64,000 nucleotides of DNA from Candidatus Thorarchaeota archaeon (GCA_029855935.1 JAGSHN010000031.1:1-64000); one strand, 5' to 3'; shown: positions 29,139 through 49,747, counted from the stretch's first letter. Numbers and translations: made by a program. The notes: generated by a model not told the origin, from the sequence alone.

Positions 29139-29150
29139 TATAAAGGTGTT
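29139..29150 (+). repeat. Putative attL core (TATAAAGGTGTT)
   Basis: 11/12 identical to 49736-49747, with AAAGGTGTT exact; lies between the last host gene and the first element promoter. Confidence 0.55.
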
Positions 29151-29196
29151 TGCGGTCGAAATGTATGCCTAATATACCACCACTGAGGGGGGTGAA

Positions 29197-29204
29197 TTTA
29201 TATT
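29197..29204 (+). promoter_or_regulatory. TATA box of the structural operon
   Basis: TTTATATT ~30 bp upstream of a 5' hairpin and ~75 bp upstream of ATG 29275. Confidence 0.6.
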
Positions 29205-29274
29205 CTACTGGATATAGAACTGTATACGTCCCTCCTGCGGGAGGGGCGCAGACTCAGCAACAGGTGAACGAGAT

Positions 29275-30246
29275 ATGGGAAAGAAGAAGAAGGCAACGTT
29301 CTCCGGGAGCGTGGCGCAGGGTGCCGGTCTCGCGGCCGGGGTCTGTGCTGTGCTTCTGATCGTCATGGTGGTCCTGCCAATGGTGGGAATCACGCTAATC
29401 ACGCTCTTCTCGGGCTTCGGGACCACGAACACTCAGTCCACGGGCGAGCCGGTCTTCGTGATGGCGTCCCTCAAGGCTAAGGGCGCCAACACGCCGCTCA
29501 ATGGGACTGTGTATCTCAGTTCTGACCTCCAGACGTGGGAGCCTGTCGACGCGAGCGCAGGCAGTCTCACTAGCAGCAACCAGTACGCGATGGGATCGGT
29601 AATCTATCTGTTCGCACCGATAAGCGGCTACTACACTGCGCTGTTCCAGACGACTGTACCACAGGCTGACACGTCTAAGACCACAGTGTCGCTCGGCATA
29701 TTCGAGCTCATTGCGGTCTCGTCCTCAATGACTGTGACCGCGCAGACGAATGCTGGCTCGAACCTTGGGACGACTGCTTCTGCTTGGTTGAACACCACGT
29801 CGGGTACGACAGAGACAGTGCGGGTGATCATCCAGAACAGTGACACGGACAGCGGCTTCGGCGATGACCGCTGGACCGACCAGACAGTCACAATCGGCAC
29901 ATCCGTCACACTCCCAGGCTACAAGAACTATCCTACTGACGGCTACACCTACGTGGGTCCGTTTGCGGTCGTTCAGGTGAACACGTCCAGTGTGGTCGTC
30001 ACGGGCGCGATGTCCTCAATCCACGTCGGCAGCAACTACTACTATTTTGTCGCGCTGAATGTCGCGACTCTCTGGAACGATGCCGATGTAGCCGGTGATG
30101 GCATCCAGGTCTTCAGTGTGGACCTCACTCCGACGGCCGATGCCCAAGTGACTGTCAGCATCTACGACTATGTACGGGCGGACTTCATCCCGACCGTGAG
30201 CCTTGGCTCTGCGGACGCGTCGACCAGCTTCAAGGTGAACGTGTAG
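29275..30246 (+). CDS. Candidate major structural protein: basic N-terminus, TM anchor, beta-rich ectodomain
   Basis: MGKKKK + hydrophobic helix + Ser/Thr-rich beta sequence; first gene behind its own promoter, flanked by hairpins. Confidence 0.6.
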   Translation: MGKKKKATFSGSVAQGAGLAAGVCAVLLIVMVVLPMVGITLITLFSGFGTTNTQSTGEPVFVMASLKAKGANTPLNGTVYLSSDLQTWEPVDASAGSLTSSNQYAMGSVIYLFAPISGYYTALFQTTVPQADTSKTTVSLGIFELIAVSSSMTVTAQTNAGSNLGTTASAWLNTTSGTTETVRVIIQNSDTDSGFGDDRWTDQTVTIGTSVTLPGYKNYPTDGYTYVGPFAVVQVNTSSVVVTGAMSSIHVGSNYYYFVALNVATLWNDADVAGDGIQVFSVDLTPTADAQVTVSIYDYVRADFIPTVSLGSADASTSFKVNV

Positions 30247-30269
30247 GGGCTCCCTGCGGAGCCTCTACA
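30242..30269 (+). terminator. 12-bp stem hairpin over the stop codon of the first structural gene
   Basis: TGTAGGGGCTCC-CTGC-GGAGCCTCTACA (one G-U pair). Confidence 0.55.
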
Positions 30270-30301
30270 TCTGTTCCCATAGTGGGGGTGATAGAGTGAG
30301 G

Positions 30302-30850
30302 ATGAAGAAGAAGACCCGGAATGCGATTCTCGCGGTGGTGGTCCTACCGGTCGTGATTCTGGCGCTGTTCTACGTCAGCACGGCGATGAACGCAGAGATG
30401 GCGTCGATGCAGCTCCAATATTACAACGATGGACAGCCGGTGTCCACGCCCTTCCAGTTGATCAACGAGGGCGGGCAGGAGATAGACTCCGTCGCCGTGA
30501 CAGTCACGTGGTCTATCTCTGGCGACAACGTGGACTGGACGACCTTGCAGCTCACCGGCGCGGTCATAGTCTACATCTCCGGCGGTGGGGAGCAGGACTC
30601 GCAGCTGACACGTCAGGACTTCACAAGTTCCGATCAGCAGGGGTCGAAGACCCTGACCTTCGCGCTGGAGACACTGTTCGCGCACTACAGCAGCGGCGAC
30701 TACACGCTCCGCTTTCACGGCCTGCTGACGGTGTCGGCGAAGGACCTCGCAGGGAACGACATCAGCGACAGTTGGAACGGCGACAGGACTATCAGCGTCA
30801 GCTGGGACGATGGCTCAGGCTCCCTCACGCTGACAGCAGAGATCTCGTAG
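30302..30850 (+). CDS. N-terminally anchored beta-sandwich structural protein
   Basis: MKKKTRN + TM helix + alternating beta-strand pattern. Confidence 0.65.
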   Translation: MKKKTRNAILAVVVLPVVILALFYVSTAMNAEMASMQLQYYNDGQPVSTPFQLINEGGQEIDSVAVTVTWSISGDNVDWTTLQLTGAVIVYISGGGEQDSQLTRQDFTSSDQQGSKTLTFALETLFAHYSSGDYTLRFHGLLTVSAKDLAGNDISDSWNGDRTISVSWDDGSGSLTLTAEIS

Positions 30851-30861
30851 GAGGGAGCGGA

Positions 30862-31524
30862 GTGCGCAGGCGGGGCTGGCTGGGCGACAGCAGTGCCTTC
30901 AATCTGGAGGTCAGCAACTTCGACCTGCTGCTCACTGTGCTCGCCCTGTTGAGCAGCTTTCTGGTCATCACAAACTTTCAGCAGGATCTTGAGCGGGCAC
31001 TGATTGCCATCGCCTTCAGCGTCTTCTGCATCGCAGGACTGACGCTTGGTCTGGCGAGCTTCGGCGTGCAGCGGGACAAGAATGTGTCCACGGGGGAACT
31101 GCTGGAGAGAGTGAACTGGGGCATTGTGGGGTTCATTGCGATTGCGATGCTTCAGCTGGCGGTGAACAGTCTCGACTTCTTCAGCGCCATCGAGTTCTAT
31201 GACGTCCTATTCCTGTTCATCGCAGCCGTGGCGGAGACATGGCTGTTCCAGTACTTCCTGCTCGTGCTCCTGTACCGGCTCAGCCCGCCCGGTCCAGTAG
31301 GTCTGAGGATGATGATTGTGGCGACACTCGATGCTGCGATATTCGCCAGTTACCATGCCGTCGTCTATGCTGCACGGCCGGACGCAATCTTGGTCGTGTT
31401 CTTAGGCGGCATCGTCCTCGCAATGGTGAACCTCGTCACAAGGAGCGTTCTTCCAGCCATGCTCGCGCACATAATGAACAATGTGCCCATTCTGGCCCTG
31501 CTTCTCGCACTGCTACCGCCGTAG
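30862..31524 (+). CDS. CPBP (CAAX protease II/Abi) family intramembrane metalloprotease
   Basis: Multi-TM; AETWLFQ (degenerate EExxxR), FASYH (FxxxH) and AHIMNN (HxxxN). Confidence 0.78.
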   Translation: MRRRGWLGDSSAFNLEVSNFDLLLTVLALLSSFLVITNFQQDLERALIAIAFSVFCIAGLTLGLASFGVQRDKNVSTGELLERVNWGIVGFIAIAMLQLAVNSLDFFSAIEFYDVLFLFIAAVAETWLFQYFLLVLLYRLSPPGPVGLRMMIVATLDAAIFASYHAVVYAARPDAILVVFLGGIVLAMVNLVTRSVLPAMLAHIMNNVPILALLLALLPP

Positions 31525-31535: not shown

Positions 31536-32513
31536 ATGAAGAGACAGAGAAGGAGACAACTGGCGCTCGGGGTCCTGCTCCTGACGGCACTCGTGGTGGG
31601 CGTCTATGCGACGACTCGGTTCAGCACCTTCAGCACCAGCGGGTTGCAGGGTGTCAGGGCCACGTGGCAGCGACTGGAGTGGAACGGCGAGTCCTATCCA
31701 TTGTCCGACCCAACGCACGCAGTGATTGACCTCACGGACGAGGGTGTGCCAGCGCCCTTCCTTGCCGACTGGACACGGTACCAGTTGGAGACCGACCAGC
31801 CAAAATACGAGGAGGTGCTTCGCTCCGAGACTGCGTGGTTCAACACGAGTGACGAGGCCCGGTGGCAGGAGGTCCGGCTGGAGCGCTGGACCCTCAGTGT
31901 GGACCTCTACGCTCTCAGCGCTGGAGGCGCATATTCTCCAGCAGGAGTGAAGTTCATTCTCAGGCTGGAGACCAACCCGGACGCGATTTTCGTCGATGCC
32001 AACAGAACGACCTCTTATGTGGTCCACGCCTACGTTCAGGAATATCAGCAGCTGGGGACTCAGACCGAACTCGTCCTCCCCTCACAGGGAGCCTTCACTC
32101 TATACTTTCCTGAGGGCGGAGGCTCGCCGGACATCCCTGAGAACACCTTTGTGGACCCTGATGCCCTCGGCCAGTACGCTGTGGTCGAGATTCAGTTTGA
32201 GACCTCGGACTTTGGGCCGGTCGGATCCCTGTGGTGGTGGACGGATGCCCACGTGCATTATGTCATTGCGCTCGACGTTGTCGTGATAGGGCAGTGGATA
32301 TGGCCACTGGACGAGGCACTGGGTGGCGAGAACAGGGCTGGTGGCGGGACGAAAGTGTCGCCCTGGGACGCCGCAGCACGGGCGCTGGGCGATGCATTCT
32401 CAGCGCTCGGCGACTGGCTGAACCAGTTCTGGTGGGTCATCCCCATCGTGATCATCAGCGTTGCCACCCTTGTGCTTCTTGTCCTGTTGAGAGGAATCGT
32501 GCCGAGGAGGTAA
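31536..32513 (+). CDS. Structural protein anchored at both termini
   Basis: MKRQRRRQ + TM, beta-rich core, Gly linker, amphipathic helix, C-terminal TM FWWVIPIVIISVATLVLLVLL. Confidence 0.7.
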   Translation: MKRQRRRQLALGVLLLTALVVGVYATTRFSTFSTSGLQGVRATWQRLEWNGESYPLSDPTHAVIDLTDEGVPAPFLADWTRYQLETDQPKYEEVLRSETAWFNTSDEARWQEVRLERWTLSVDLYALSAGGAYSPAGVKFILRLETNPDAIFVDANRTTSYVVHAYVQEYQQLGTQTELVLPSQGAFTLYFPEGGGSPDIPENTFVDPDALGQYAVVEIQFETSDFGPVGSLWWWTDAHVHYVIALDVVVIGQWIWPLDEALGGENRAGGGTKVSPWDAAARALGDAFSALGDWLNQFWWVIPIVIISVATLVLLVLLRGIVPRR

Positions 32514-32520: not shown

Positions 32521-32721
32521 GTGGAGTGGGGGCTGGTCTTTATCGTGCTGGCAGCAGCAATAGGAGTGGCAGGCTCGCTACTAGTTGAGGATATGCTGGT
32601 GGCGGTCTATCACCACTGGGTCAAGAAACGCCAGCAGGAGAAGATCCCAGTACGTCGCTGGGTCGTCAGGGACTATGGCGACAGGATGGTCATTCTATGC
32701 AGGGGGTGGAAGAGGGAGTGA
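32521..32721 (+). CDS. Small single-TM protein
   Basis: N-terminal TM and basic tail; GTGA overlap with the next gene. Confidence 0.55.
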   Translation: MEWGLVFIVLAAAIGVAGSLLVEDMLVAVYHHWVKKRQQEKIPVRRWVVRDYGDRMVILCRGWKRE

Positions 32722-35700
32722 GAGGTCGCGCTGTGGTCCTGCTCTTTGTACTGATGATTATGCTACCAGCCCTCGGGCCGATGGTGCCCTCACTGGTTGT
32801 TCCCCCCTCCCACCAGACTACTTCTGGCCCGAGGGCTGACCCCTCACAGAACTTCAGCACGAGCGCGGACGGGGACGTGTCGCCCGACTCCATCACCAGT
32901 TTCAGCGAGACTCTCCCGGATGATGTCATGTTCTATCCCGATAACGAGTCCTATGGGAGCGGGTACGTCGAATCGTTCGCCGACGTCACTGACTGGTACA
33001 CAAATGCTTGGGAGAGCGAAGACTCCTACTCAACGGATGGAGATATTCTGTCGCTGGAGTCGTACGGAAACGCGAACAATGACGTTGACAAACTCTTGAG
33101 CGACTCAATCTCAATCTCAATGTACAACTACTTTGAATTCAGATACCGAATGAATGTGAGTACTGGGGGCGCAGATGGTGTCTGGATTGCCTTCTACGAT
33201 GCGGCAGGCGCCTTGATTCGCTACTGGTCCACGGATTCATTGACGGCCAATAAGTGGGTCACGGTGAAGCGTTGGATACCCACGTTGTCTGCGGGCAGCA
33301 GTTCGTCAACGACCATTGAGAAGGTGGGGCTCTATACGAGAACGGATGTCGGAGAGCACGCGAGGCTTGACGTTGACTACGTGCGTGTTGCCTCTGGTGA
33401 TCAAATGGGCTGGCAATATGACGGTTCTACTCTCTGTGGTGTAGAACCCGCGTCGTTGGCGAACTGGCAATCTACTACTGAGATATTAAGTGGGGACCAG
33501 TTTCGGGTCACAGCGAAGAAGATTGCCGCAGGTAACTCCTATTTCTACGTCAAGTTCTACACAGACACGACAAGCACGATTGCTGAGGTCGATGAGGACT
33601 ACTATCCCTTTTTCAAGATTAGATGGGCTGGCGATAATCTCAATGACACTAGCTGCTGGATGTATCTGTATGTGTACGGACAGGACAAGAACCCCACGTG
33701 GACGGAAATGATGACCGCGGGGCTGGTCCATAGTGTCGACTTCAATGAGACCGTTGTCATGAATGTCGACGCAATCGCAAGCGAGCCCAACTCTCGTGAC
33801 TACATCGCAACAATCTATGTATACCTTGATGATAATCGCATCAATTCAGTCGTACAGATTACTGTAGACTACATGAAGATGTACTCCATTGCGGAGTTCT
33901 CCATCTCGCAGAACTACGTTGAGGTCGATGATATTGCGTATGTACAGAACGGTCTGCTGTACACGGAGCTGGACGGGTATCCTGAATCAATCATATTCAA
34001 CCACGACCCAGCAGTTTCAATATCCCCGACTTATAACGTTGTGAACTTGACGCTTGCCGACTCCGACCCGACGAGCAGTCCCTACGACTACGGGGTAAGG
34101 GTCTATCAGACCACTTCTACGTACTTGACAAAGTACGAGGAAACGAGATTCGATTGGACGAGTTCACTGACAGAGGTGACCGATTTCTTCATAGAGTCCT
34201 ACTATACGAACATCATCAGCGCAATCAAGTTCTGGCAGGACTCCGCTGCGCCGGAGATAATAGCTGTATGGAACACGCCCTCCGAGCCAGACAATGCCAC
34301 AAGTGTTCGGTTCTCCGTGACAGCCTATGATCTGATGGGAGTCTACTCGGTCTCGCTAGTGTCCCTGATGCAGCCGGCCGGATCCTCCATCTCCGCCATA
34401 ACTCTATCGCGCTATGCTCTGGGCGCAGGATCTGAGCTCTGGACCGCGAACGAAACACTGTCGGTGCCGGGCGAGTACGTGTTCGAGGTCCGCGTCTCGG
34501 ACGGAGCGAATGTCGCCTACGAGACACTCTCTCTGGTGGTGGACCAGTACGAACCCGCTACGCTCGTGGTCAGCGACAGCGTCTTCTCGTACAACAACGA
34601 GACCAACGTCCTATCGGGTGATGTGTCCATTCCCTGCTCCTATTCTGTGTACGAGAACGACAGCCTTACGGCGTCCGGATCGCTGTCCGCAGGCTCCTAC
34701 AGCATCGAGTGGCCTCACTCGACCACCCCTGGTAATTACTTCTGGGCTGTCAAGTTTGAAAATGGAGGCCACACGATGTGGAGGAATGGGACGTACCACA
34801 TCGATGGCCAGATTCATGACGGTGATCTGTACTACGCTCTCCTATACTCCTACCCTCTGGAGGTGACCGACATGTCACACTTCTGCGCCAGACCAGAATA
34901 CAGCGGGTACATGTTCTTCCTGCTATGGGGCGACCTCGACAACGTCACCACTTCCATCACAATGGAGCCCTATGTGTACGAAGGAGCCATGACCGGATTC
35001 TACTGCGAGGTCTACGGAGTCTGGTCGCTCCTCATCCCAATTGACGATGCCACGATACATCAGTTTGCGAGTTCTAACGTTGGAAACGTGTTCAGTAATT
35101 TCACTATGAAGTACAACGGTCGAGTCGTGACACCTGCAATAACGACCTTCGGCGGGGGATGGGATCACTACACGTACGAATTTTTCAACACCGGAAGCGG
35201 ACAGACTGGAGTCATCTATCTCAGTGACTACTTTCTTGCACCAAAGACGTTTCAGTACTTTGTCCTCGATAATGGAACCTTCGTGGACTCGAACACTATA
35301 GACTATGACATCGCGGTGTATCATAATTATGAACTATCTCCGTACATAGGTGGCTGGGGGCGCTTCCTGTTCCGCGTTCGCGTCAACAACCAATTTGCGG
35401 GCTGGGGTGTAGGAGTCACTTGGACGGATCAGGACTACAACGACGGACGTCAGTATCTGGAGGTCGACCTCTACGGCCTCAACACCGATTTTCTCGACAC
35501 TACCTGTTCCATCCAACTCGATCTTGTCTGGGGGATAGCATTCCTGGCAAACGAGACCTTCTCCTTCGATGAAGACGGGATAGCGACGGCACTCACCTCT
35601 CTCTACACCCAACCGCTTCTCTACGTTCCCGGAAGGCTCCAGATTGAGAACCGGCTTGCACTTGTGGCGGAGCGGTACGTCACCTTCTCCGGCACGACGA

Positions 35701-36146
35701 ACCTCCCCTGTAATGTCACGGTTACGGAGAACGGCACCGTCGTTGCGACTGCTGAGATCTCGCAGGCGGGAGAGTTCTCCCTGCTGTGGAATAGAAGTGT
35801 CGGGAACGGCGACATCATCGCAACCCTTCACTTCTACACCTCGACCAGTGACGTCTACATCAACGTCACCTATGCCATGCTCCGCGAGATTGAGTACGTG
35901 GACTACGACCAGATCTGGAAGATAGTCCAGAGCGAGGCGGACAGGATAATACGACAGAGTCCAGCGGGAGCCAGCCCAGAGGCTGTGCAGAATATAGTCT
36001 CCAATGCAGTCGTGCCAATCTGGGCATTCATAGTTGTCTTCGGCGTGTTCGGTCTTCTCCTCCTGTGGAGGTTCACGGACTCGATTGCGGAACGGGTCGC
36101 CAAGATGATGAGAAGGAGCGCGGGACTCAGGAGGTCGAGAGGATGA
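32718..36146 (+). CDS. Large spike/adhesin-like glycoprotein
   Basis: Signal-like N-terminus, many N-x-S/T sequons, repeated beta-sandwich modules, C-terminal TM plus basic tail. Confidence 0.75.
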   Translation: MRGRAVVLLFVLMIMLPALGPMVPSLVVPPSHQTTSGPRADPSQNFSTSADGDVSPDSITSFSETLPDDVMFYPDNESYGSGYVESFADVTDWYTNAWESEDSYSTDGDILSLESYGNANNDVDKLLSDSISISMYNYFEFRYRMNVSTGGADGVWIAFYDAAGALIRYWSTDSLTANKWVTVKRWIPTLSAGSSSSTTIEKVGLYTRTDVGEHARLDVDYVRVASGDQMGWQYDGSTLCGVEPASLANWQSTTEILSGDQFRVTAKKIAAGNSYFYVKFYTDTTSTIAEVDEDYYPFFKIRWAGDNLNDTSCWMYLYVYGQDKNPTWTEMMTAGLVHSVDFNETVVMNVDAIASEPNSRDYIATIYVYLDDNRINSVVQITVDYMKMYSIAEFSISQNYVEVDDIAYVQNGLLYTELDGYPESIIFNHDPAVSISPTYNVVNLTLADSDPTSSPYDYGVRVYQTTSTYLTKYEETRFDWTSSLTEVTDFFIESYYTNIISAIKFWQDSAAPEIIAVWNTPSEPDNATSVRFSVTAYDLMGVYSVSLVSLMQPAGSSISAITLSRYALGAGSELWTANETLSVPGEYVFEVRVSDGANVAYETLSLVVDQYEPATLVVSDSVFSYNNETNVLSGDVSIPCSYSVYENDSLTASGSLSAGSYSIEWPHSTTPGNYFWAVKFENGGHTMWRNGTYHIDGQIHDGDLYYALLYSYPLEVTDMSHFCARPEYSGYMFFLLWGDLDNVTTSITMEPYVYEGAMTGFYCEVYGVWSLLIPIDDATIHQFASSNVGNVFSNFTMKYNGRVVTPAITTFGGGWDHYTYEFFNTGSGQTGVIYLSDYFLAPKTFQYFVLDNGTFVDSNTIDYDIAVYHNYELSPYIGGWGRFLFRVRVNNQFAGWGVGVTWTDQDYNDGRQYLEVDLYGLNTDFLDTTCSIQLDLVWGIAFLANETFSFDEDGIATALTSLYTQPLLYVPGRLQIENRLALVAERYVTFSGTTNLPCNVTVTENGTVVATAEISQAGEFSLLWNRSVGNGDIIATLHFYTSTSDVYINVTYAMLREIEYVDYDQIWKIVQSEADRIIRQSPAGASPEAVQNIVSNAVVPIWAFIVVFGVFGLLLLWRFTDSIAERVAKMMRRSAGLRRSRG

Positions 36147-36355
36147 GAGTGAAGGAGACCATAGCGCGAAAGTCAACCTACACGATGATCTTGGCAGTGA
36201 GTTTCTTCATTGCTGTGCTATTGTTCAGCGACTGGTTCGGCGTGACATTCGTGGGCGGGATAGGTGAGCTCTTCCGGCTGTTTCTGCTGTTCCTGCTGCT
36301 CACCAGCCTGTCCAGCGTTCTCACGTGGGCGATGTTCAGGGGGTCGACTGAGTGA
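36143..36355 (+). CDS. Small two-TM protein
   Basis: ATGA overlap; two hydrophobic helices separated by GVTFVGGIGE. Confidence 0.65.
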   Translation: MRVKETIARKSTYTMILAVSFFIAVLLFSDWFGVTFVGGIGELFRLFLLFLLLTSLSSVLTWAMFRGSTE

Positions 36356-41374: not shown

Positions 41375-41381
41375 GGTAGAA

Positions 41382-42782: not shown

Positions 42783-42950
42783 AGACGGTGAAGAATGTGG
42801 AAGGCGTCAGCATTGCGATGGCGCCATGTCCAAACTGCGGTGGCCTTCGACTCCGTTTTGCCATTGAGCAACAAATGCGAGGTATTCTGTGCGAGCTGCG
42901 GATTGCTGTTGCTGGAAGTCTTGGGCGGAGGTGAAGAAACGTGCGAGTGA
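42779..42950 (+). pseudogene. TFIIB-type zinc-ribbon gene split by an apparent 1-nt frameshift
   Basis: CPNCGG in the frame of ATG 42779; EVFCASCGLLL in the +1 frame. Confidence 0.5.
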
Positions 42951-43315
42951 CGTGGAATGGCGATAACACAGTGACGTTTGAAGGCTCTCGTGAGACCTCC
43001 ACGGCCATTGTTGAAGCCCTTGATTTTGCCCGCAGGCTCTTTGCGGGGCTGGACAGGCTGGGTGAGCGGCAGAGGGACGCGGACGAGGCGAGATATGTGC
43101 GTTCAGAGGAATCGGGTGTGTCTCCTTCCTTCACGCTTGATCCCGCCGAGACTCGCCTAGGGAACTGCCCTCTGTGCGGGGGCGTACTGGAGCGGAAGAG
43201 TACGAGCTCAAGGATAGGCCCGCCGGGTATGATTCAGAGCGAGGAGATCCACACGACTGTCTACTGCCCCCATTGCGGCTACGAGCAGGTCTCATTCGAG
43301 GAGGTGCCTCTGTGA
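42941..43315 (+). CDS. Zinc-ribbon protein
   Basis: CPLCG...CPHCG; GGAGGTGA RBS. Confidence 0.65.
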   Translation: MRVTWNGDNTVTFEGSRETSTAIVEALDFARRLFAGLDRLGERQRDADEARYVRSEESGVSPSFTLDPAETRLGNCPLCGGVLERKSTSSRIGPPGMIQSEEIHTTVYCPHCGYEQVSFEEVPL

Positions 43316-44046
43316 CTGCGAACAGAATTCGCATCAAGAAGTCGGTGGGACCATTCTGGAGGTGGACCATCAATTTCATGGTCGGATGTGACCAATGTCT
43401 TTACTGTTACAACAAACGGTGGAATTGGGCCCGCGGGTCACCACGAATCAAAACGGACCTGTCGCTCCTAAGGAAACAAGCAGAGTCCTTCGAATGGAGC
43501 CCAGGACCGTCGGCAATGTGCACAACGCTCTATGACGTGCTCACGTCCAGCAGTCATGACCCATTCCACGTCTCATCACTATCCACAGCGGTAGAGATTC
43601 TCCGGCTACTGGCGAATACCCCTGTGGCGAGTCATCTACGGGTTCTCACAAAGATGGCACTGTTCAATCCTCCACGGTGCGGGGGGCTTTGGGGCATGAC
43701 AATCACAACACTAAATGGTGCAGTGGCTCGGCTGCTGGAACCTCTTGCATCGCCCCCACACGAGCGTTTCAACGCTCTTCAGAACTGGGCCCAGCGAGGG
43801 CACAAGCTGTGGCTCTCCGTCGAGCCTATGCTGGAGGGAATGCATCTTCATGACCTCATTTGGTCCTTGGAACGGCTCGGTGTTCATCCCCAAGAGGTCT
43901 GGGCCGGACGACTAAATCATCGTCATCTATCGACAAAGGCAGCAGAGTACGCTCTCGATGATGCTGAGATAGTGAGGCAGTTCGAAGAGGCGAGAGACTC
44001 CTTTCCAGAGATACGGTGGTATCTGAAGAGGGAGGTGAGGGCGTGA
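43312..44046 (+). CDS. Radical-SAM-like protein (SplB-related), atypical CxxCxxC spacing
   Basis: NFMVGCDQCLYCY, GMTITTL...LEPLASPPHERF, WLSVEP. Confidence 0.68.
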   Translation: MTANRIRIKKSVGPFWRWTINFMVGCDQCLYCYNKRWNWARGSPRIKTDLSLLRKQAESFEWSPGPSAMCTTLYDVLTSSSHDPFHVSSLSTAVEILRLLANTPVASHLRVLTKMALFNPPRCGGLWGMTITTLNGAVARLLEPLASPPHERFNALQNWAQRGHKLWLSVEPMLEGMHLHDLIWSLERLGVHPQEVWAGRLNHRHLSTKAAEYALDDAEIVRQFEEARDSFPEIRWYLKREVRA

Positions 44047-44492
44047 GCGTCGACACGATTTCCGCATCCACATCGATCACCGAGAGCTACGTCGCGACGG
44101 CGACCGTCTACACATCCTACTATGCCAGATTGATGAGAAACGTGGATGAACGACCCGATTTGACGCACGTGGCGGTCAGTCGCTACTGGCCTCGGTGGAT
44201 GAAGAAACCTGAGGGCGTGCTGTGGCTTCCAAATCTAGGGCCTAGCAAGCAGCTGCTCTTCACTGCAAAGAAACTGAGCATGGACTTCGAGGAGTACGGT
44301 CACCGATATCTTCACGAGATCCTTGACACACGGGACGGCCGGGAGGCGCTGAACAGGCTGTTGGCACTCCTCGAAGATGGAGAAGATGTCGTGCTGTACT
44401 GCTACGAGAAAGATGTCCGATGTTGCCACCGCTTCTGGCTCTCGGCACTTCTCTGTCACGCGTACGGCTTTGGCCAGGGGGGAGAGCTGTGA
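44043..44492 (+). CDS. DUF488 family protein
   Basis: VYTSYY, AVSRYWP, LGPSKQLL, VLYCYEK...CHR. Confidence 0.75.
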   Translation: MSVDTISASTSITESYVATATVYTSYYARLMRNVDERPDLTHVAVSRYWPRWMKKPEGVLWLPNLGPSKQLLFTAKKLSMDFEEYGHRYLHEILDTRDGREALNRLLALLEDGEDVVLYCYEKDVRCCHRFWLSALLCHAYGFGQGGEL

Positions 44493-44755
44493 AGTCTCCG
44501 CCAACAGCTGAGATAGAGCGAGGACTCTGGCGACAGGGCAAGGACCCCGCCAACATCCAACCCTATTGCAGGCTATGTATGAGAAGGAGGGAATGTGATA
44601 ACTGGCTTCTACAGCATGTACCGATGATGCGATGCGAGAACTTTCTCTTTCCCTGTCCAAAGTGCGGCGAGAACGTGGAGCTGCGCTATGACGAGGCCAG
44701 CGAGTCGTGGGGCTACGTGTGCAGGCAATGCAAGCTGATTTTGGTGGTTCGGTGA
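44489..44755 (+). CDS. Cys-rich zinc-finger protein
   Basis: CRLC, CPKCG, CRQC. Confidence 0.6.
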   Translation: MKSPPTAEIERGLWRQGKDPANIQPYCRLCMRRRECDNWLLQHVPMMRCENFLFPCPKCGENVELRYDEASESWGYVCRQCKLILVVR

Positions 44756-44756
44756 C

Positions 44757-46577
44757 GTGACCATGACCGAGGCACATGTCAGTGACTGGACGGTGACGGA
44801 CGAAGAGCTGCTCTCGCTCATCCAACGCTACGAGCAAGAGTTCGGGGAGTGGAATCCAGAACACTTCTTTGAGATATTCTTTCATGTCCTTCGGCCCTCT
44901 TCTCCCCGGCAGGTGCACATCGAATACGTGAATGAGTTGCGAGAGCGCGGAGCAAATAGCTGTATATTGCTCCCTTCTTGGCGGACTCCCCAGAAGGTAC
45001 ACGTCATAGCATCGTATCTTCTACGCAAACATCGCTTCTATGCTCAGTCCAAGAATAGCCCGATATGGATGTATCACGAGGACGAAGGGATCTGGCGGCC
45101 GGATGGTGAGGAATTCATTCAACGGTTCGTGAGAGAGATTCTCGGCGAGGATTTCAGAACGCACGTAGTCAACGAGGTCGTCAATTCTATCCGATATGCA
45201 TCCTACAATCCAAGCGTGGAGTTAGGCGGGCCGCCACACAAGATCGTGGTCAATAATGGCCTTCTGAATATTGAAACGCGAGAACTTGAGGGCTTCGCCG
45301 CGGACGAATACCACATTGTCCGCCTTCCGGTGGACTATGACCCAGATGCAGACTGCCCTCGTTTTAGGAAGTTCTTGGACGAGATTCTGGACTCTGAAGA
45401 TGACAAGAAGGCCATCATCGAGCATCTCGGCTCTTGTCTACATCGTGTCCCGTATTCGAATATCGTGTTGCTTCTCGGCGAGGGGTCCAACGGTAAGAGC
45501 GTTCTGCTCAATGTTGTCAAGACCTTTCTCGGTGCGGAGAACGTCAGCGCCATTCAGCTGCAGAGGCTTGAGGAGCGCTTTCAGACCGCCAAGCTGCACG
45601 GCAAGCTCGCCAACATCTGCGCGGACCTGCCAGCTAACCCCATCCGATACACCGGCATGATAAAGATGTTGACGGGGGGAGATATCATCACCGCGGAGCG
45701 CAAGAACAGAGACCCATTTGAGTTTGTCAATCACGCCAAGCTGTGGTTTAGTGCAAACGAAGTACCGCCGTCTTGGGACGGCACGGACGCATTTCATAGA
45801 AGAATGCGAATCATAGAGTTCAGGCGCCAATTCTTGGATGACGATCCGAACACCATCCCGCAGGACATCCTGGTGCCTCAGCTGACAACAGAGGAAGAGC
45901 TATCAGGAATACTCAACCTCGCTCTGGATGGGCTGGCGAGACTACGACACCAGGGCCACCTCTCGGGAACCCCAGGTGTCGAGGCGGCTCGGCGGCAGTA
46001 CATCAAGCGCAGCGACCCAATCCAGTACTTTGCCATGTACTTCTTGGAACAGGACCCCACTGCGCCGAGCGTGCCGAAGCAAGAGATGTACGATATGTAT
46101 GTCAAACTGTGCCGCGCGCTTGGCAAGATCCCGAAGTCCGACGGGTGGTTCGGTAAGAGGCTGAAGATGCTTCTGCCATACATCTCTGAATCACAGCCCC
46201 GCGAGGAGGGTTCCCGCATTCGTGTGTGGGATGGTGTGCGCATCCGATACGACCTGCTACAGAAGGAGGGGGTAGAGGTGCCCTCTGGCACAGGTGGAAC
46301 AGGTTCCCTACTTATTTCGTCGTCTAAAGTGATTGACTCTATGGAGAGAAGTAGGGAAACAACCCGTTCCACCCGTGCCACCCGTTCCACAATACTGAGG
46401 GCCCTGAGTGGACATGATCTGACGGAGGGCGCGTTGTGGGACGCTCTTGGCTGCAGTTCAGAGGAGGAGCGGAGGAGGGTGTCGGAGGCCCTGCAGGAGC
46501 TCGTGCGAGAGGGCAGGGTGATGGCGCGTGGCGACACTCCCGTGTACTACCGCGCCGTAAGAGGTGATGCACGATGA
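44757..46577 (+). CDS. D5/P4-family SF3 replicative helicase with C-terminal winged helices
   Basis: D5_N-like region, Walker A GEGSNGKS, KLANICADL, KLWFSAN, RRMRII; no primase motif seen. Confidence 0.88.
   Translation: MTMTEAHVSDWTVTDEELLSLIQRYEQEFGEWNPEHFFEIFFHVLRPSSPRQVHIEYVNELRERGANSCILLPSWRTPQKVHVIASYLLRKHRFYAQSKNSPIWMYHEDEGIWRPDGEEFIQRFVREILGEDFRTHVVNEVVNSIRYASYNPSVELGGPPHKIVVNNGLLNIETRELEGFAADEYHIVRLPVDYDPDADCPRFRKFLDEILDSEDDKKAIIEHLGSCLHRVPYSNIVLLLGEGSNGKSVLLNVVKTFLGAENVSAIQLQRLEERFQTAKLHGKLANICADLPANPIRYTGMIKMLTGGDIITAERKNRDPFEFVNHAKLWFSANEVPPSWDGTDAFHRRMRIIEFRRQFLDDDPNTIPQDILVPQLTTEEELSGILNLALDGLARLRHQGHLSGTPGVEAARRQYIKRSDPIQYFAMYFLEQDPTAPSVPKQEMYDMYVKLCRALGKIPKSDGWFGKRLKMLLPYISESQPREEGSRIRVWDGVRIRYDLLQKEGVEVPSGTGGTGSLLISSSKVIDSMERSRETTRSTRATRSTILRALSGHDLTEGALWDALGCSSEEERRRVSEALQELVREGRVMARGDTPVYYRAVRGDAR
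46286..46389. repeat. Iteron-like origin of replication inside the helicase gene
   Basis: TGGCACAGG TGGAACAGG TTCCCTACTT - 35 bp spacer - AAGTAGGGAA acaa CCCGTTCCA CCCGTGCCA CCCGTTCCA. Confidence 0.7.
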
Positions 46578-46756
46578 ACGAGAACAGAAAGCGGAGGATC
46601 TGTCCCTATCTAACGCCGAGGCAGCCCTGCCCATCTCCTGGCCTCGTAGACTGTCACATCCACACGGACTGGGGACTGGTGCCCTGCCCGGTGATAATTG
46701 TGAAGCGTTCCTCCAACCCAGAGTTTGTCGAGGGAGGTAGAGAAGAGGAGGAATGA
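46574..46756 (+). CDS. Small Cys/His protein
   Basis: ATGA overlap; CPY..CP..CH..CP. Confidence 0.5.
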   Translation: MNENRKRRICPYLTPRQPCPSPGLVDCHIHTDWGLVPCPVIIVKRSSNPEFVEGGREEEE

Positions 46757-46760
46757 TGTG

Positions 46761-46925
46761 ATGGCAAGAGTGTGTAGATGTAAGAGGTGTGGTGTGCTAT
46801 TGGAAGAGGTCATGCTATTGGCTCTGTTACGAGAGCTCGGAAATCATGTCTCTGGGCCGATCAGTACGTGTTGGTCTGGTGGTCCGGAACACGATTTCGA
46901 GTGGGTGGAGGTGGATAAGAAATGA
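46761..46925 (+). CDS. Small zinc-binding protein
   Basis: CKRCG...C...H; start uncertain. Confidence 0.5.
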   Translation: MARVCRCKRCGVLLEEVMLLALLRELGNHVSGPISTCWSGGPEHDFEWVEVDKK

Positions 46926-47110
46926 CCGAAGATGGAGTCCTTGAGGATGTGGTGCGACAGTTCGCACACATCTTTGGACAAGCAGTCACCAGCGTCGTGC
47001 TGGTTGTGGTCTGCACTGACGACGTCAAGAGTGCCAAGAACATCTGCAACGAAATCAAGAGACGCTTGATGCATCAATCGCGACCATCCAGCTTATGGAC
47101 TGGAGAGTAG
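46922..47110 (+). CDS. Small hypothetical protein
   Basis: GGAGGTG RBS, overlapping stop. Confidence 0.5.
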   Translation: MTEDGVLEDVVRQFAHIFGQAVTSVVLVVVCTDDVKSAKNICNEIKRRLMHQSRPSSLWTGE

Positions 47111-47116
47111 TGGGAG

Positions 47117-47401
47117 GTGATGATAATGTCGGTTAAGAGAAGATTCTGGCGCGGCTACTGGGTAAGATTGGTGGTCCTGTCGGCGATAGCGATGATTGGC
47201 ATGCTGTTCTTCGCGTTGTTCACAATCGACACCTTTGTGAGCGTGCATGTCAATGTGCCATTGCCAGTCAGAACTGTGGGATTCCTCATCTGTGCGGTGG
47301 TAGCCTCGTGGTTCTTCCTGATTGCATTGTATAAGAACACTCTGTGGGCCATACGTGTACGCAGGAAGATGCGCGCGGTCGAAGGAGGCGATGAGGAGTG
47401 A
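47117..47401 (+). CDS. Two-TM protein
   Basis: Hydrophobic helices flanked by basic residues. Confidence 0.6.
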   Translation: MMIMSVKRRFWRGYWVRLVVLSAIAMIGMLFFALFTIDTFVSVHVNVPLPVRTVGFLICAVVASWFFLIALYKNTLWAIRVRRKMRAVEGGDEE

Positions 47402-47592
47402 CTGAGGAGACCAGCCAGGGCCGCCGGCTTGCAGCCATCACAGTGTTGCTGATGTCGATGATCACGCTACTCGGTGATGGTTTCCTGTTGGTGGCGATGG
47501 GGCAGTATCCTCTCCTCTTTGCGAACGTTGTCTATGTGAGCTACGTCCTGATTGCGGTCTACGTATATCTCTGGGAGAGTGATGTGGAGTGA
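47398..47592 (+). CDS. Two-TM protein
   Basis: GTGA overlaps; hydrophobic. Confidence 0.55.
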   Translation: MTEETSQGRRLAAITVLLMSMITLLGDGFLLVAMGQYPLLFANVVYVSYVLIAVYVYLWESDVE

Positions 47593-48059
47593 CGTGCCTG
47601 AGATGCGGCCGGGATGCCGTCGACTACTACGTGGACAATGGCATTCAGCGCCATGACGACTGGGCGTGCGCCATCTTGGGCATCGGAGGGGCGCCGTACT
47701 GCTGGAAGTGTCGGCATGAGTACTACTTCTCCGAGCAGCACTGCGACTACGTTGCGATCTTTGAGTTTCGTAACATCTTCGGCGCCAGGTATCGTACTGA
47801 CGTCCTCTTCTGGAAAGGCATGAGAGAGCTCGATGCTGCACTGGAGAGGATGCGTCTGGTTGGCGAGTACCTGCATCGTGCGTCTGGTCGGCAGGCACGA
47901 TACCTCGGTGTGTCTGCGGGTCAGAGAGGGGGCGTGTCATTCATTTTCGGCACGGAGAACAGTCTGGACTTTCTGCGAGAGCGGATAATGTGGGTCCGAA
48001 GAATGATGGCGGTGCCGGTTCAAGGGACGCTGGAGGAGTTTCTGGAGGTGGAGGTGTGA
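47589..48059 (+). CDS. Hypothetical protein with CxxC pairs
   Basis: CLRCG...CWKC; ends QGTLEEF (PCNA-interacting PIP-box-like). Confidence 0.6.
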   Translation: MTCLRCGRDAVDYYVDNGIQRHDDWACAILGIGGAPYCWKCRHEYYFSEQHCDYVAIFEFRNIFGARYRTDVLFWKGMRELDAALERMRLVGEYLHRASGRQARYLGVSAGQRGGVSFIFGTENSLDFLRERIMWVRRMMAVPVQGTLEEFLEVEV

Positions 48060-48649
48060 GACTTCGCGTTCTGGACCTGTTCTCGGGTCTCGGAGGTTTC
48101 TCGGAGGCGTTTCTGCGGCGGGGGCATGAGGTGTTCCGAGTGGACAACGACGTCCGTTTCGCGCAGGTCCCGTGTACTATCATAGGGGACGTGCGGGAGA
48201 TTGACATTGAGCAGTTCGTACCGATTGATGTTGTCTTGGCGAGTCCACCGTGCGAGACATTCACACGGCGTCATCTGCCCTGGCTGGATGCACGTGATGG
48301 CGAGATAGAGGAGGCAATGCTGCTTGTGGAGGCTGCAGTGATGATCATCGACGATTTGGAGCCACAGTTCTGGGTATTGGAGAATGTGCAGGGTGCCGTA
48401 CCGCACATATCCAGACTGCTGGGCCCGCCCAGACAACGTATCGGCTCGCGCTACCTGTGGGGTGTCTTCCCGCGGATACATCTCACTCCGCAGGAGGAGC
48501 GCGAGTGCTACGGAAAGTACCGCCTTCCGCCCAGCGTTCCGAACCGGGCTGCGGAGCGCGCCAGGATTCCGTATGTGCTGAGCTTGGCACTCTGCCGGGC
48601 CATGGAGGAACAACAGACACTGCTGGAGGTGCTGGAGGATGAGCGCTGA
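48056..48649 (+). CDS. Compact DNA cytosine-C5 methyltransferase
   Basis: Motif I LDLFSGLGG, motif IV SPPC, motif VI ENV. Confidence 0.85.
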   Translation: MRLRVLDLFSGLGGFSEAFLRRGHEVFRVDNDVRFAQVPCTIIGDVREIDIEQFVPIDVVLASPPCETFTRRHLPWLDARDGEIEEAMLLVEAAVMIIDDLEPQFWVLENVQGAVPHISRLLGPPRQRIGSRYLWGVFPRIHLTPQEERECYGKYRLPPSVPNRAAERARIPYVLSLALCRAMEEQQTLLEVLEDER

Positions 48650-49734
48650 GGCTGCTGAGCCGGGAGATCTGTGGGCGCTGGTACGGGAGTTGGTGGAGAA
48701 GGCAAAGGAGGAACTGAGGACTGAGAGAGAGCGACAGGAGCAGGTTCCTGAGCGAGTTCGAGCGGAAACTTGAACTGGAGGGTCTTCGGCCCAGAAGCAT
48801 CAGGAACTACATGTACTGGGCTGGCCGACTGTACCCTCTGACCCGTCCCCGTCTCGAGGAGCTGCTATTGCAAGCGAGAAGCGCAAGCACTTACAACCTC
48901 GTCTTGCAGACAGCGAGAAAGATGGTCACATTGATGGGGATCTCTGTGAGTCTGGAGGGACTGCGGTTTCGCCGCGTGGAGAATCGCGTGCGGCATCATG
49001 AGGACCTTCTGACCGTCGACGAGGTTCGTGCAGTCATCCGTGAGGCTCGGACAACGGCAGCAGCCAGTGCGATTGCAGTGTGCTGGGATGGCGCCCTCAG
49101 AGTCGGCGAGCTACTCTCATTCGAGATGCGCGACATCCGACAGGACGAGTACGGCTACGTGATCATCGTGCGCGGTAAGACCGGCGAGAGGCCTGTGCGT
49201 CTCGTCCGCAGCTGCGGACATCTCTCTGCATGGCTCAGGCATCGCGGTGAGGAACCCGGACGGGTCTTTCCATTCACAGCAGACTGGCTCCGCGGACATC
49301 TGCGTCGTGCTGCCCGTAGGGCCGGCATAAGGAAGAGAGTCTACCCGCATCTACTGAGACATTCAAGACTGACAGAACTGGCCAAGAGCCTGCCTCGACA
49401 GGCACTTGTGGCATTTGCGGGTTGGAACGCCGAGACGGATATGGACAGTGTGTACGTTCATCTCAGCCAGCAGGATGTGGACTCGGCCGTGTTGCGGGCG
49501 GCTGGTGTTCCGGTGGGCAGTAGCGAGTCCTCTGTGCAGCGTTGCCCGCGCTGTCATCTTCTCACGGACGGCGGAGACTTTTGCAGCAATTGTGGGGCGG
49601 TGCTGCAGGTCACTGCTGATGATCTACAGAGGCTGACTCTTGAGCAGATGATGTTCCGGGCGTTGCAGATGCCTGAGGTCCAGCGCGCGATGATTGATGC
49701 ATTCAAGCGCATTATAGATGAACAGAAGGAGTAG
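48639..49734 (+). CDS. Tyrosine recombinase/integrase with C-terminal zinc ribbon; 5' end split by a frameshift or initiating at CTG 48721
   Basis: GALRVGE (R), GKTG (K), HLLRH (HxxR), GW, catalytic Y in VYVH, CPRC..CSNC. The frame is open back to 48718; an upstream 44-aa ORF starts at 48639. Confidence 0.85.
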
Positions 49735-49735
49735 T

Positions 49736-49747
49736 TAGAAAGGTGTT
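49736..49747 (+). repeat. Putative attR core (TAGAAAGGTGTT)
   Basis: 1 bp after the integrase stop; matches 29139-29150 at 11/12. Confidence 0.55.

What the first reader, a model, noticed from the sequence alone, without database searches (positions are those of the whole stretch)
29139..49747. Integrated Asgard provirus with an all-membrane morphogenesis module and no recognisable capsid
Seen: an integrase at one end, a short direct repeat at both ends, an SF3 helicase, a repressor switch, and a 13-gene left operon in which almost every product has TM helices, ending in an ATPase. Knowledge: head-tail viruses need an HK97 capsid, portal and terminase, and icosahedral ones a jelly-roll capsid with an A32-like ATPase; none is recognisable here. 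Pleolipoviruses, spindle-shaped viruses and inoviruses instead build particles at the membrane from TM proteins plus an ATPase. Inference: this is a temperate enveloped or extruded virus, or a vesicle-borne element. Its gene set (three anchored beta-proteins, a giant spike, two membrane proteases, an ATPase-nuclease) does not match any family I recognise.
Basis: partly seen in the sequence, partly recalled or inferred. Interest (0 to 1): 0.9.

Follow-up and report, generated by a model that had tools for sequence, protein, structure and literature searches.

The report
HeimV1-like integrated element in Asgard genome
This is a real 20.6-kb mobile element inserted in an Asgard archaeal chromosome, a distant relative of the published putative virus HeimV1, and like HeimV1 it carries a membrane-protein operon ending in an ATPase-nuclease but no recognisable capsid gene.

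Summary
Window 29139-49747 is a 20.6-kb insertion. Two genomes of the same genus have the flanking genes side by side. The 9-12 bp repeat sits exactly at both junctions.

The gene content is as described:
- tyrosine integrase, D5/SF3 helicase, C5 methylase, and a wHTH switch;
- a tight 13-gene operon in which 11 products have predicted TM segments;
- a 1149-aa anchored giant protein and a CPBP protease;
- a terminal 572-aa ATPase with a C-terminal Hjc-type nuclease fold.

No capsid, portal or terminase profile matches.

The claim that it matches no described element is wrong. The ATPase is homologous to the ATPase of HeimV1 (profile-profile 98.8%, E 1e-16). HeimV1 is the 30-kb putative provirus of Ca. 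Heimdallarchaeum endolithica (Wu et al. 2022), which circularises, replicates and is CRISPR-targeted. I identified it here by its published primers. The same layout recurs patchily in 16 of 400 Asgard genomes.

Whether these elements make particles is still unshown. This copy shows no excised form or extra coverage in its source metagenome, and its integrase looks frameshifted.

Verdict: a new variant of a known but poorly understood kind of Asgard element.

The parts
29139..29150 (.). attL: direct repeat TATAAAGGTGTT (core AAAGGTGTT, 29142-29150)
   Evidence: It sits at the left junction defined by the empty sites in G001 and G003. Sequence read.
29180..29274 (+). Promoter-like AATTTATAT box and leader hairpin upstream of the operon. 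It includes a 33-nt stretch (29232-29264) that matches a conserved host locus.
   Evidence: The motifs AATA(T)ACCACC, AATTTA(T/A)AT and GTATAC plus a hairpin are shared with the homologous element end in JAJRWI010000034.1.
29275..30246 (+). Gene 1: 323-aa N-terminally anchored, Thr/Ser-rich protein, first gene of the operon
   Evidence: TM at residues 11-50. Homologues at 58-61% identity in two other assemblies and 28% in G010. No family hit. The AF2 model is unusable.
30296..30850 (+). Gene 2: 184-aa N-terminally anchored protein
   Evidence: TM at residues 6-34. No family hit.
30856..31524 (+). CPBP (Rce1/Abi-type) intramembrane protease
   Evidence: PF02517, E 6.3e-11. Multi-TM. Homologue in G010.
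31536..32513 (+). Gene 4: 325-aa type-I-like membrane protein (N-terminal and C-terminal TM)
   Evidence: No homologue in 5.8 billion clusters.
32521..32721 (+). Gene 5: 66-aa single-TM protein
32697..36146 (+). Giant 1149-aa protein with N-terminal signal-like segment and C-terminal TM anchor; presumed adhesin or spike
   Evidence: TM segments. Its N-terminal half is homologous to the G010 giant (E 6e-47) and to an ENA contig. The C-terminal half of the G010 giant matches the HeimV1 'tail fibre'.
36143..36355 (+). Gene 7: 70-aa two-TM protein (candidate small structural membrane protein)
   Evidence: no PHROG hit.
36352..36696 (+). Gene 8: 114-aa TM protein with HEGAH motif (putative metalloprotease; motif only)
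   Evidence: Sequence. The G010 counterpart has HELGH. No Pfam, PHROG or PADLOC hit.
36693..37712 (+). Gene 9: 339-aa protein with N-terminal and C-terminal TM segments. A truncated paralogue lies at 41582-42181.
   Evidence: G010 homologue, 3e-8.
37716..38192 (+). Gene 10: 158-aa soluble, highly charged protein
38167..38451 (+). Gene 11: about 90-aa three-TM protein
38448..38633 (+). Gene 12: 61-aa two-TM protein (candidate small structural membrane protein)
   Evidence: Only a weak hit to an unknown PHROG.
38647..40365 (+). Hallmark ATPase: RecA-like P-loop domain (Walker A GPRRSGKS, Walker B VVDE), helical/wHTH middle, C-terminal Hjc-type PD-(D/E)xK nuclease domain
40963..41250 (-). wHTH regulator (repressor candidate)
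   Evidence: HxlR/PadR-like. phrog_12817. 61% identical in G010. The most widely conserved DNA of the element.
41294..41374 (.). Divergent-promoter region with a 29-nt inverted repeat (operator candidate)
41349..41585 (+). First gene of the rightward (early) operon, a small DNA-binding-like protein
   Evidence: 51% identical in G010, in the same divergent arrangement.
41582..44755 (+). Early genes: the gene-9 paralogue, a coiled-coil protein, Zn-ribbon proteins, a 244-aa phrog_13321 protein and DUF488
44757..46577 (+). D5-like SF3 helicase (replication)
   Evidence: PF19263 and PF08706. phrog_864, 7.5e-90.
46574..48059 (+). Small genes, two of them with TM segments; function unknown
47990..48649 (+). 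C5 cytosine DNA methyltransferase
   Evidence: PF00145. PADLOC MTase_II.
48639..49734 (+). Tyrosine integrase. The catalytic domain is intact, but the N-terminal core-binding helix lies upstream of the first ATG and out of frame with a 44-aa ORF at a (GA)n tract.
   Evidence: PF00589. Frames read. The same sequence is in the source-run contig.
49736..49747 (.). attR: direct repeat TAGAAAGGTGTT (core 49739-49747)

Best explanation
Window 29139-49747 is a site-specifically integrated mobile element of an Asgard archaeon (MAG GCA_027031745.1, hydrothermal-vent metagenome). It belongs to a phylum-wide but patchy group of Asgard elements. The one studied member of that group is HeimV1 of Ca. Heimdallarchaeum endolithica.

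Shown:
- It is an insertion between two host genes, bounded by a 9-12 bp att repeat.
- It carries an integrase, an SF3 helicase replication module and a wHTH/inverted-repeat switch.
- It has a leftward-placed, tightly packed operon of membrane proteins, a giant anchored protein and a CPBP protease.
- That operon ends in an ATPase fused to a wHTH and an Hjc-type nuclease.
- The ATPase is homologous to the HeimV1 ATPase.

Inferred:
- The operon is a morphogenesis/egress module.
- The anchored glycoprotein-like products and small 2-3-TM proteins are inserted in the host membrane, and some are trimmed by the element's own membrane protease(s).
- The giant protein serves as the adhesin.
- The ATPase-nuclease resolves or cuts replicated circular DNA and drives it into a membrane-derived particle that leaves without lysis. 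This would resemble the pI/Zot-type or B251-type ATPases of extruded and spindle-shaped viruses.

This copy appears quiescent and may be grounded by an integrase frameshift.
For: - Empty sites in G001 and G003, with the repeat at both junctions.
- The ATPase was not found in 4 of 4 same-genus genomes, and was found in 1 of 24 other family genomes with a single-protein query.
- A sister element in G010 has the same gene order at 24-61% identity.
- A gene-1 homologue sits at a different chromosomal site in another MAG.
- G052 is identified as Ca. H. endolithica, and its first ~30 kb as HeimV1. The contig ends in tRNA-Gly(CCC) and all four published primers map exactly.
- ATPase homology to HeimV1: BLASTP 36% over 100 aa, E 8e-12; hhalign 98.8%, E 1.2e-16 over 329 columns.
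- Giant-protein link through G010, with i-E 1e-13 to the HeimV1 giant.
- The same layout occurs in G090, G324, G174 and G283.
- 16 of 400 Asgard genomes carry the ATPase family.
- The nearest predicted-structure neighbours of the ATPase are viral, partly Zot-annotated clusters.
- HeimV1 circularises, replicates and is CRISPR-targeted (PMC8813620).
- Wyrdviruses have the same layout of adhesin, a block of unknown genes, then an ATPase without TM (bioRxiv 10.1101/2021.07.29.453957).
Against: - No structural protein of any known virus family is detectable.
- No relative was found in IMG/VR or in GenBank phage records with the queries used.
- None of about 290 spacers of the host's own arrays matches this element or its relatives. 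The short DNA matches in the 400 representative genomes do not lie in CRISPR arrays.
- Unitig-like contigs of the source run pass through both att junctions. Depth is 18-27x across the stretch laid, with no step above the contigs that run into the flanks. No excision or replication is visible.
- The integrase N-terminus is out of frame.
- CRISPR targeting and autonomous replication of HeimV1 fit a plasmid equally well. No particle has been shown for any member.
Confidence: 0.55

Rival explanations
1. It is an integrative plasmid or conjugation-like element rather than a virus. The membrane operon with its giant adhesin builds a mating or DNA-export apparatus. The ATPase-HTH-nuclease acts as a combined DNA-processing enzyme and motor, playing the roles of relaxase and coupling protein.
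For: - No capsid of any kind is detectable.
- The adhesin plus many TM proteins plus a single RecA-like ATPase with a DNA-cutting domain would suit DNA transfer.
- The published HeimV1 evidence (circularisation, replication, CRISPR targeting) does not distinguish a plasmid from a virus.
- Medvedeva et al. considered capsid-less CRISPR-targeted Asgard MGEs 'perhaps more likely plasmids'.
Against: - No Pfam hit to VirB4, VirD4/TraG, relaxases or Ced/Ted components.
- The closest predicted-structure neighbours of the ATPase are viral clusters.
- The temperate-phage-like divergent repressor switch and the operon layout resemble those of non-lytic archaeal viruses.
Confidence: 0.27
2. It is a distant member of the spindle-shaped virus lineage (wyrdvirus-like). 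One of the 61-94-aa two- or three-TM proteins is a His1/SSV1-type major capsid protein, the giant protein is the terminal adhesin, and the ATPase is the B251/pI counterpart. This is a specific version of the best explanation.
For: - The layout matches the published wyrdvirus module: MCP of about 80 aa with two hydrophobic segments, adhesin, a block of five unknown genes, and an ATPase without TM.
- Candidate small 2-TM proteins lie at 36143-36355 and 38448-38633.
- The top BFVD hit of the ATPase model is a Zot protein, E 8.8e-6. Zot-annotated clusters are among its Atlas neighbours.
Against: - No PHROG hit of the small TM proteins to fusellovirus or halspivirus MCP families.
- Short hydrophobic hairpins are common and non-specific.
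- In wyrdviruses the MCP genes were found by sequence similarity to His1. Here none is.
- No wyrdvirus sequence could be fetched for direct comparison.
Confidence: 0.15
3. It is a grounded, decaying remnant that the host now keeps only for its cargo (surface proteins, methylase). It would no longer be a functioning element.
For: - The integrase N-terminus is out of frame.
- No excised form or coverage step is seen.
- Element GC is 56.0% against 55.7% for the genome.
- A degraded fragment of a second ATPase copy lies elsewhere in the genome at C28:228472-228705.
Against: - All 13 operon genes and the replication genes are open, with tight translational coupling.
- The att repeats are intact.
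- The element is absent from all four congeners, so the insertion is recent at genus scale.
Confidence: 0.2

Closest known systems
HeimV1, putative provirus of Ca. Heimdallarchaeum endolithica (Wu et al. 2022, Nat Microbiol 7:200, PMC8813620)
   Same: - An integrated Asgard element with its integrase at one end.
- A long polycistronic block of N-signal/C-anchor membrane proteins, a giant anchored protein and multi-TM proteins, ending in a homologous 550-650-aa ATPase (hhalign 98.8%).
- Divergent small regulators after the ATPase, followed by replication genes and a methylase.
- No capsid gene identified.
   Different: - 20.6 kb against about 30 kb.
- Integrated in an intergenic site between protein genes, not beside tRNA-Gly.
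- Apart from the ATPase, no protein matches HeimV1 directly at E < 0.01 apart from a marginal DUF488 match (E 1e-4). The giant protein links only through the G010 element.
- This ATPase keeps a clear Hjc-type nuclease motif set (E453, D477, NxK), which looks degenerate in HeimV1.
- It has a CPBP protease and an HExxH protein.
- Its SF3 helicase is a different replication protein.
- No evidence of excision here, whereas HeimV1 was shown to circularise and replicate.
Wyrdviruses (Asgard spindle-shaped-virus relatives; Medvedeva et al., bioRxiv 10.1101/2021.07.29.453957)
   Same: - The same module logic: small hydrophobic proteins, a large adhesin, a block of unknown genes, then an ATPase lacking a TM domain whose nearest viral relatives are Zot/pI-like.
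- Variable replication modules.
   Different: - No detectable sequence similarity of any small TM protein to His1/SSV-type MCPs.
- The ATPase carries an Hjc-type nuclease domain, which the section of the paper read here does not mention for wyrdviruses.
- Direct comparison was not possible, because no wyrdvirus sequences were reachable with these tools.
Pleolipoviridae (e.g. HRPV-1, SNJ2)
   Same: - Temperate members carry integrases.
- The virion is a membrane vesicle with an anchored spike and internal membrane proteins, plus an NTPase gene at the end of the conserved block.
   Different: - No PHROG or Pfam similarity to VP3, VP4 or VP8.
- The operon is much larger.
- The ATPase has a nuclease domain.
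Inovirus/Tubulavirales pI (Zot) morphogenesis ATPases
   Same: The P-loop domain's best viral structural neighbours are Zot-annotated.
   Different: - No TM segment in the ATPase.
- No Pfam Zot hit.
- The element is dsDNA with an SF3 helicase, not an HUH/rolling-circle ssDNA phage.

Membership tests
HeimV1-like Asgard integrated elements | Homologue of the HeimV1 terminal ATPase | tested here: met
   BLASTP E 8e-12, 36% identity over 100 aa. hhalign 98.8%, E 1.2e-16, 329 columns. HeimV1 was identified by primer mapping and the terminal tRNA-Gly.
HeimV1-like Asgard integrated elements | Homologue of the giant 'tail fibre' protein, with conserved synteny around it | tested here: inconclusive
   The window giant matches the G010 giant (6e-47). 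The C-terminal half of the G010 giant matches the HeimV1 giant (i-E 1e-13), though with high compositional bias. A direct profile comparison of window and HeimV1 giants gave only 2.5% probability. The gene order is the same: anchored proteins, giant, TM proteins, soluble ~160 aa, ATPase.
HeimV1-like Asgard integrated elements | Site-specific integration with its own integrase | tested here: met
   Empty sites and att repeat. PF00589 integrase adjacent to attR.
HeimV1-like Asgard integrated elements | Excision to a circle and autonomous replication | tested here: not met
   Source-run contigs bridge both junctions. There is no joint and no coverage excess. Contigs drop rare variants, so a rare excised form is not excluded.
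HeimV1-like Asgard integrated elements | Targeting by Asgard CRISPR spacers | tested here: not met
   About 290 spacers of the host's own arrays give no match. Short DNA hits in 400 Asgard genomes are not in arrays. Environmental spacer sets were not searchable.
Spindle-shaped viruses (Fuselloviridae, Halspiviridae, wyrdviruses) | His1 VP21 / SSV1 VP1-type major capsid protein | tested here: inconclusive
   Two-TM proteins of 61 and 70 aa exist. They have no PHROG hit to MCP families. Hydrophobic hairpins are not specific.
Spindle-shaped viruses (Fuselloviridae, Halspiviridae, wyrdviruses) | B251/pI-like ATPase without a TM domain | tested here: inconclusive
Pleolipoviridae | Homologues of the VP3 membrane protein, VP4 spike and VP8 NTPase | tested here: not met
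   No PHROG or Pfam hits for any operon protein. Fold-level comparison of the spike candidates was not possible.
Caudoviricetes (head-tail viruses) | HK97 major capsid protein, portal, large terminase | tested here: not met
   No Pfam or PHROG hit in any ORF of the element.
Varidnaviria (jelly-roll capsid plus A32-like ATPase) | Single or double jelly-roll major capsid protein | tested here: inconclusive
   No profile hit. The AF2 model of the 323-aa beta-rich gene-1 product failed (pLDDT 35.8). Gene 4 has no homologues from which to build an alignment.
Conjugative T4SS / ICE | VirB4-type ATPase, coupling protein, relaxase | tested here: inconclusive
Anti-phage defence ATPase-nucleases | Match to a known defence-system protein model | tested here: not met
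   PADLOC gives no family for the ATPase-nuclease.

The most novel reading that the evidence does not exclude
HeimV1-like elements, this one included, are a phylum-wide lineage of temperate Asgard viruses. Their virions would be built entirely from host-membrane-inserted proteins, with no homologue of any known capsid protein. Their hallmark enzyme would be a RecA-like ATPase fused to a Holliday-junction-resolvase-type nuclease that resolves and exports the genome. [quoted passage not shown]
Probability: 0.3. Interest if true: 0.85.

Novelty: new variant of a known kind. Interest (0 to 1): 0.62.

Why it matters
Very few Asgard mobile elements are understood, and only one Asgard virus has been cultivated.

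- This analysis ties an anonymous provirus-like island in a vent MAG to HeimV1. In the papers held here, HeimV1 is the one capsid-less putative Asgard virus shown to excise and replicate.
- The pairing of a membrane operon with an ATPase-nuclease recurs across several Asgard families (16 of 400 genomes).
- That defines a testable hallmark gene, the ATPase-wHTH-Hjc fusion. Its family has 229 representative clusters and no Pfam model of its own.
- It reframes HeimV1. The published reading leaned on machine-learned 'tail fibre' calls and Caudovirales affinities. The conserved module instead looks like that of non-lytic, membrane-derived archaeal virions or of a DNA-transfer apparatus.
- If particles are confirmed, this would be a new kind of virion in the archaea closest to eukaryotes.

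Tried and rejected
- tRNA target. ARAGORN called a tRNA-Ser at 49586-49673. It lies inside the integrase CDS and Infernal/Rfam finds no tRNA there at E <= 1. I reject it. Integration is intergenic.
- IMG/VR scans found no relatives. Queries were the ATPase alignment A1 and single ATPases from G174, G052, G283 and G324.
- GenBank phage records (tblastn, E <= 1) gave no match for the window ATPase, the giant protein or the G174 ATPase.
- Two JGI metagenome scans, with A2 and A8, confirmed no relative.
- The genome-contig scan returned only the G010 contig.
- The wider alignments A1 and A6 were too divergent for pattern scans.
- A profile search of PDB sequences hit only generic P-loop stretches.
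- ESM Atlas feature searches gave no usable lead for gene 1 or gene 4. For the ATPase they gave only AAA/Mrr-type leads below 0.9.
- AF2 of gene 1 with 4 sequences gave pLDDT 35.8 and was not searched.
- Gene 4 has no homologue at all.
- Contexts of the close ATPase homologues P0008-P0010 are contigs of under 4 kb and are uninformative.
- Own-genome CRISPR spacers give no hit to the element or its relatives.
- No RNA holder is listed for the element.
- A wyrdvirus comparison was not possible. The journal version (PMC11165672) is not held, and the preprint gives no accession numbers.
- Papers on Fylgjavirus (DJR capsid) and on Atabeyarchaeia MGEs were checked. Neither describes this kind of element.
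- The accession JALVPO / GCA_027031745 occurs in no held paper.
- The host's class within Asgard was not determined.

Full report

Yes. The window is contig C27 of a 2.97-Mb, 97%-complete MAG. It corresponds to GCA_027031745.1 / JALVPO010000006.1 and comes from a hydrothermal-vent metagenome. The genome encodes a full-length actin-family protein at 443 bits, which fits an Asgard archaeon. I did not determine the class.

I searched the two flanks in the four other genomes of the genus.
- In G001 the left flank ends at C11:23528 and the right flank starts at C11:23636.
- In G003 the two flanks are about 1 kb apart. That space is taken up by the diverged homologue of the left flank gene.
- The window holds 20.7 kb between the same points.

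The empty sites carry TTAAAGGTCTTGTT at the corresponding place. By my estimate, a shared 9-mer in junction intervals of this size is expected about 0.02 times by chance. The repeat is therefore best read as the att core. Integration is intergenic. The ARAGORN tRNA-Ser lies inside the integrase gene and Rfam does not support it.

**2. Gene content**

Replication, integration and regulation:
- Tyrosine integrase, D5_N/DUF5906 SF3 helicase, C5 methylase and DUF488.
- A wHTH regulator.
- The wHTH gene and a small rightward gene diverge from a region holding a 29-nt inverted repeat. The pair is conserved at 61% and 51% identity in a sister element.

The left part is a 13-gene block (29275-40365) with overlapping or nearly abutting ORFs.
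- Eleven products have hydropathy-predicted TM segments.
- One is a CPBP protease (PF02517).
- One small TM protein has a conserved HExxH motif but no profile hit.
- One is a 1149-aa protein with an N-terminal signal-like segment and a C-terminal anchor.
- Nothing in the block matches PHROGs or Pfam capsid, portal, terminase, pleolipovirus, fusellovirus or T4SS families.

**3. The terminal ATPase**

Homologues are rare among close sequences (3 clusters). A profile search finds 229 representative clusters, with no Pfam model of their own. Members give scattered weak hits to AAA, nSTAND, HTH, FokI-cleavage and PDDEXK models.

AlphaFold2 with 50 sequences gave pLDDT 85.7.
- The family keeps E453 and K492, and almost always D477. 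An Asn sits where Hjc has Glu.
- Among predicted viral structures the best hit is a Zot protein (E 8.8e-6), followed by an A32-like ATPase.
- ESM-Atlas neighbours are mostly viral clusters, some of them Zot-annotated.
- PADLOC has no match.

**4. Relatives**

- The ATPase was not found in the four congeners. It was found in 1 of 24 other family genomes with a single-protein query and in 16 of 400 Asgard genomes with a profile.
- G010 (MAG Dive96_bin4.146) carries a sister element with the same gene order. It runs from a Thr-rich anchored first gene through a CPBP protease, an HExxH protein, a 1182-aa giant and the ATPase to the wHTH switch and an integrase.
- A 60%-identical gene-1 homologue sits at a contig end beside different host genes in a third MAG. 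It shares the promoter-like box and a leader hairpin with the window element.
- More distant elements in other Asgard families (G052, G090, G324, G174, G283) show the same plan. They have N-signal/C-anchor proteins, a 1100-1800-aa anchored giant, multi-TM proteins and a homologous 550-650-aa ATPase; G052 and G090 also have a soluble ~160-aa protein. The G174 and G283 contigs cut the giant short or off.

**5. The link to HeimV1**

G052 is a single 3,326,783-bp contig. Wu et al. (PMC8813620) state that they rotated the Ca. [quoted passage not shown] They also give the junction primers.
- G052 ends with tRNA-Gly(CCC).
- All four primers map exactly, at 3,325,205(+), 927(-), 29,323(+) and 31,430(-).

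The first ~30 kb of G052 is therefore HeimV1. It includes the membrane block, the 1822-aa 'tail fibre' and the 653-aa ATPase.

The window ATPase matches the HeimV1 ATPase by BLASTP (E 8e-12). The two ATPase sub-families match profile to profile at 98.8%, E 1.2e-16, over 329 columns.

The giant proteins are mosaics. The window and G010 giants share the N-terminal half. The C-terminal half of the G010 giant matches the HeimV1, G090 and G324 giants. A direct window-to-HeimV1 giant profile comparison was not significant.

According to the paper, HeimV1 exists both integrated and as a replicating circle. The evidence is V-shaped coverage and PCR of the circular junction, and HeimV1 is targeted by CRISPR spacers. 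The paper never mentions a capsid and relies on PhANNs 'tail fibre' predictions. Apart from one passing mention in an unrelated preprint, no other held paper discusses HeimV1.

**6. Activity of this copy**

Only one run holds the element, probably the source of the MAG. Its unitig-like contigs run from host DNA through attL (a 12.6-kb record) and through attR (a 20.1-kb record).
- Depth is 25-27x on the contigs that run into the flanks and 18-22x on the two internal contigs. No joint is reported.
- The contigs break only at the internal 37-bp paralogue repeat and near 40260-40290, where related sequences exist in the sample.

So no excised form, empty site or over-replication is visible, though rare forms would be dropped from contigs.

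The integrase's conserved N-terminal helix lies upstream of the first ATG and has no in-frame start. A 44-aa ORF in another frame overlaps it at a GAGAGAGAG tract. This is a likely frameshift. A degraded fragment of a second ATPase copy lies at C28:228472-228705.

**7. How it most likely works**

Shown:
- an integrated, self-replicating type of element;
- a lysogeny-style switch;
- a co-transcribed-looking membrane-protein operon, conserved in plan across Asgard lineages;
- an operon that ends in an ATPase-wHTH-resolvase fusion.

Inferred:
- The operon is an egress or morphogenesis module.
- Anchored proteins and small hydrophobic proteins populate a patch of host membrane.
- The element's protease(s) process them.
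- The giant mosaic protein is the adhesin.
- The ATPase-nuclease resolves replicated circles and moves DNA into the nascent particle.

The nearest analogies are non-lytic archaeal viruses. The wyrdvirus module of adhesin, five unknown genes and a TM-less pI-like ATPase is strikingly similar in layout. None of these analogies passed a homology test here. A conjugation-like or vesicle-mediated plasmid remains a serious rival.

**8. Novelty and verdict**

The 'virus' reading is plausible but unproven. The 'matches nothing' claim is wrong, because the element is a divergent relative of HeimV1.

Three points appear in none of the papers I could search or read here:
- the group extends to this lineage and across the phylum;
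- the ATPase-Hjc fusion is its hallmark;
- the conserved module is membrane-based rather than tail-like.

I file it as a new variant of a known, poorly understood kind. Interest is 0.62.

Noticed in passing
window 29232-29264; own genome C21:259958-259990: A 33-nt stretch of the operon leader (hairpin plus GCGCAGACTCAGCAACAGG) matches one conserved chromosomal locus at 88-91%. The match occurs in all five genomes of the genus and in several genomes of another genus. The host locus looks like a ~100-nt structured RNA with a long terminal helix and has no Rfam family.
   Followed up: partly
window 48639-48811: The integrase's conserved N-terminal helix has no in-frame start codon. A 44-aa ORF in another frame overlaps it at a GAGAGAGAG tract. 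This points to a frameshifted or recoded integrase. The source-run contig shows the same sequence.
   Followed up: partly
window 36688-36746 and 41577-41635: The 339-aa membrane gene of the operon has a 199-aa truncated paralogue in the early operon. Their first 59 nt are 88% identical. Logan unitigs break exactly at this repeat.
   Followed up: partly
own genome C28:228472-228705: A degraded fragment covers the first 75 residues of a second ATPase homologue (52% identity, with stop codons). It lies about 3 kb from a CRISPR array at the contig end, and no other element genes are nearby.
   Followed up: partly
own genome C18, C20, C24, C28, C29: The host carries at least six CRISPR arrays with four repeat variants and about 290 spacers. 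None matches the element or the related elements fetched.
   Followed up: yes
window 51158-51189: A 32-nt stretch downstream of the epimerase gene recurs at 94-97% identity on unrelated contigs of G001 and G002. Its nature is unknown. ARAGORN found no tRNA there.
   Followed up: no
L045:18984-19961 (HeimV1), L050:3801-4769, L053:625-1512: HeimV1 and the G174 and G283 elements share a conserved N4/N6-type DNA methylase (SPPY and DPFLGSGTT motifs) downstream of the ATPase. The window element instead carries a C5 methylase near its integrase.
   Followed up: partly
window 40254-40343: The 3' end of the ATPase gene matches a contig of another genus at 86% DNA identity over 90 bp (G019:C174:8719-8804). 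The source metagenome holds variant sequences that diverge at 40238-40290. Related elements therefore co-occur in the sample.
   Followed up: no
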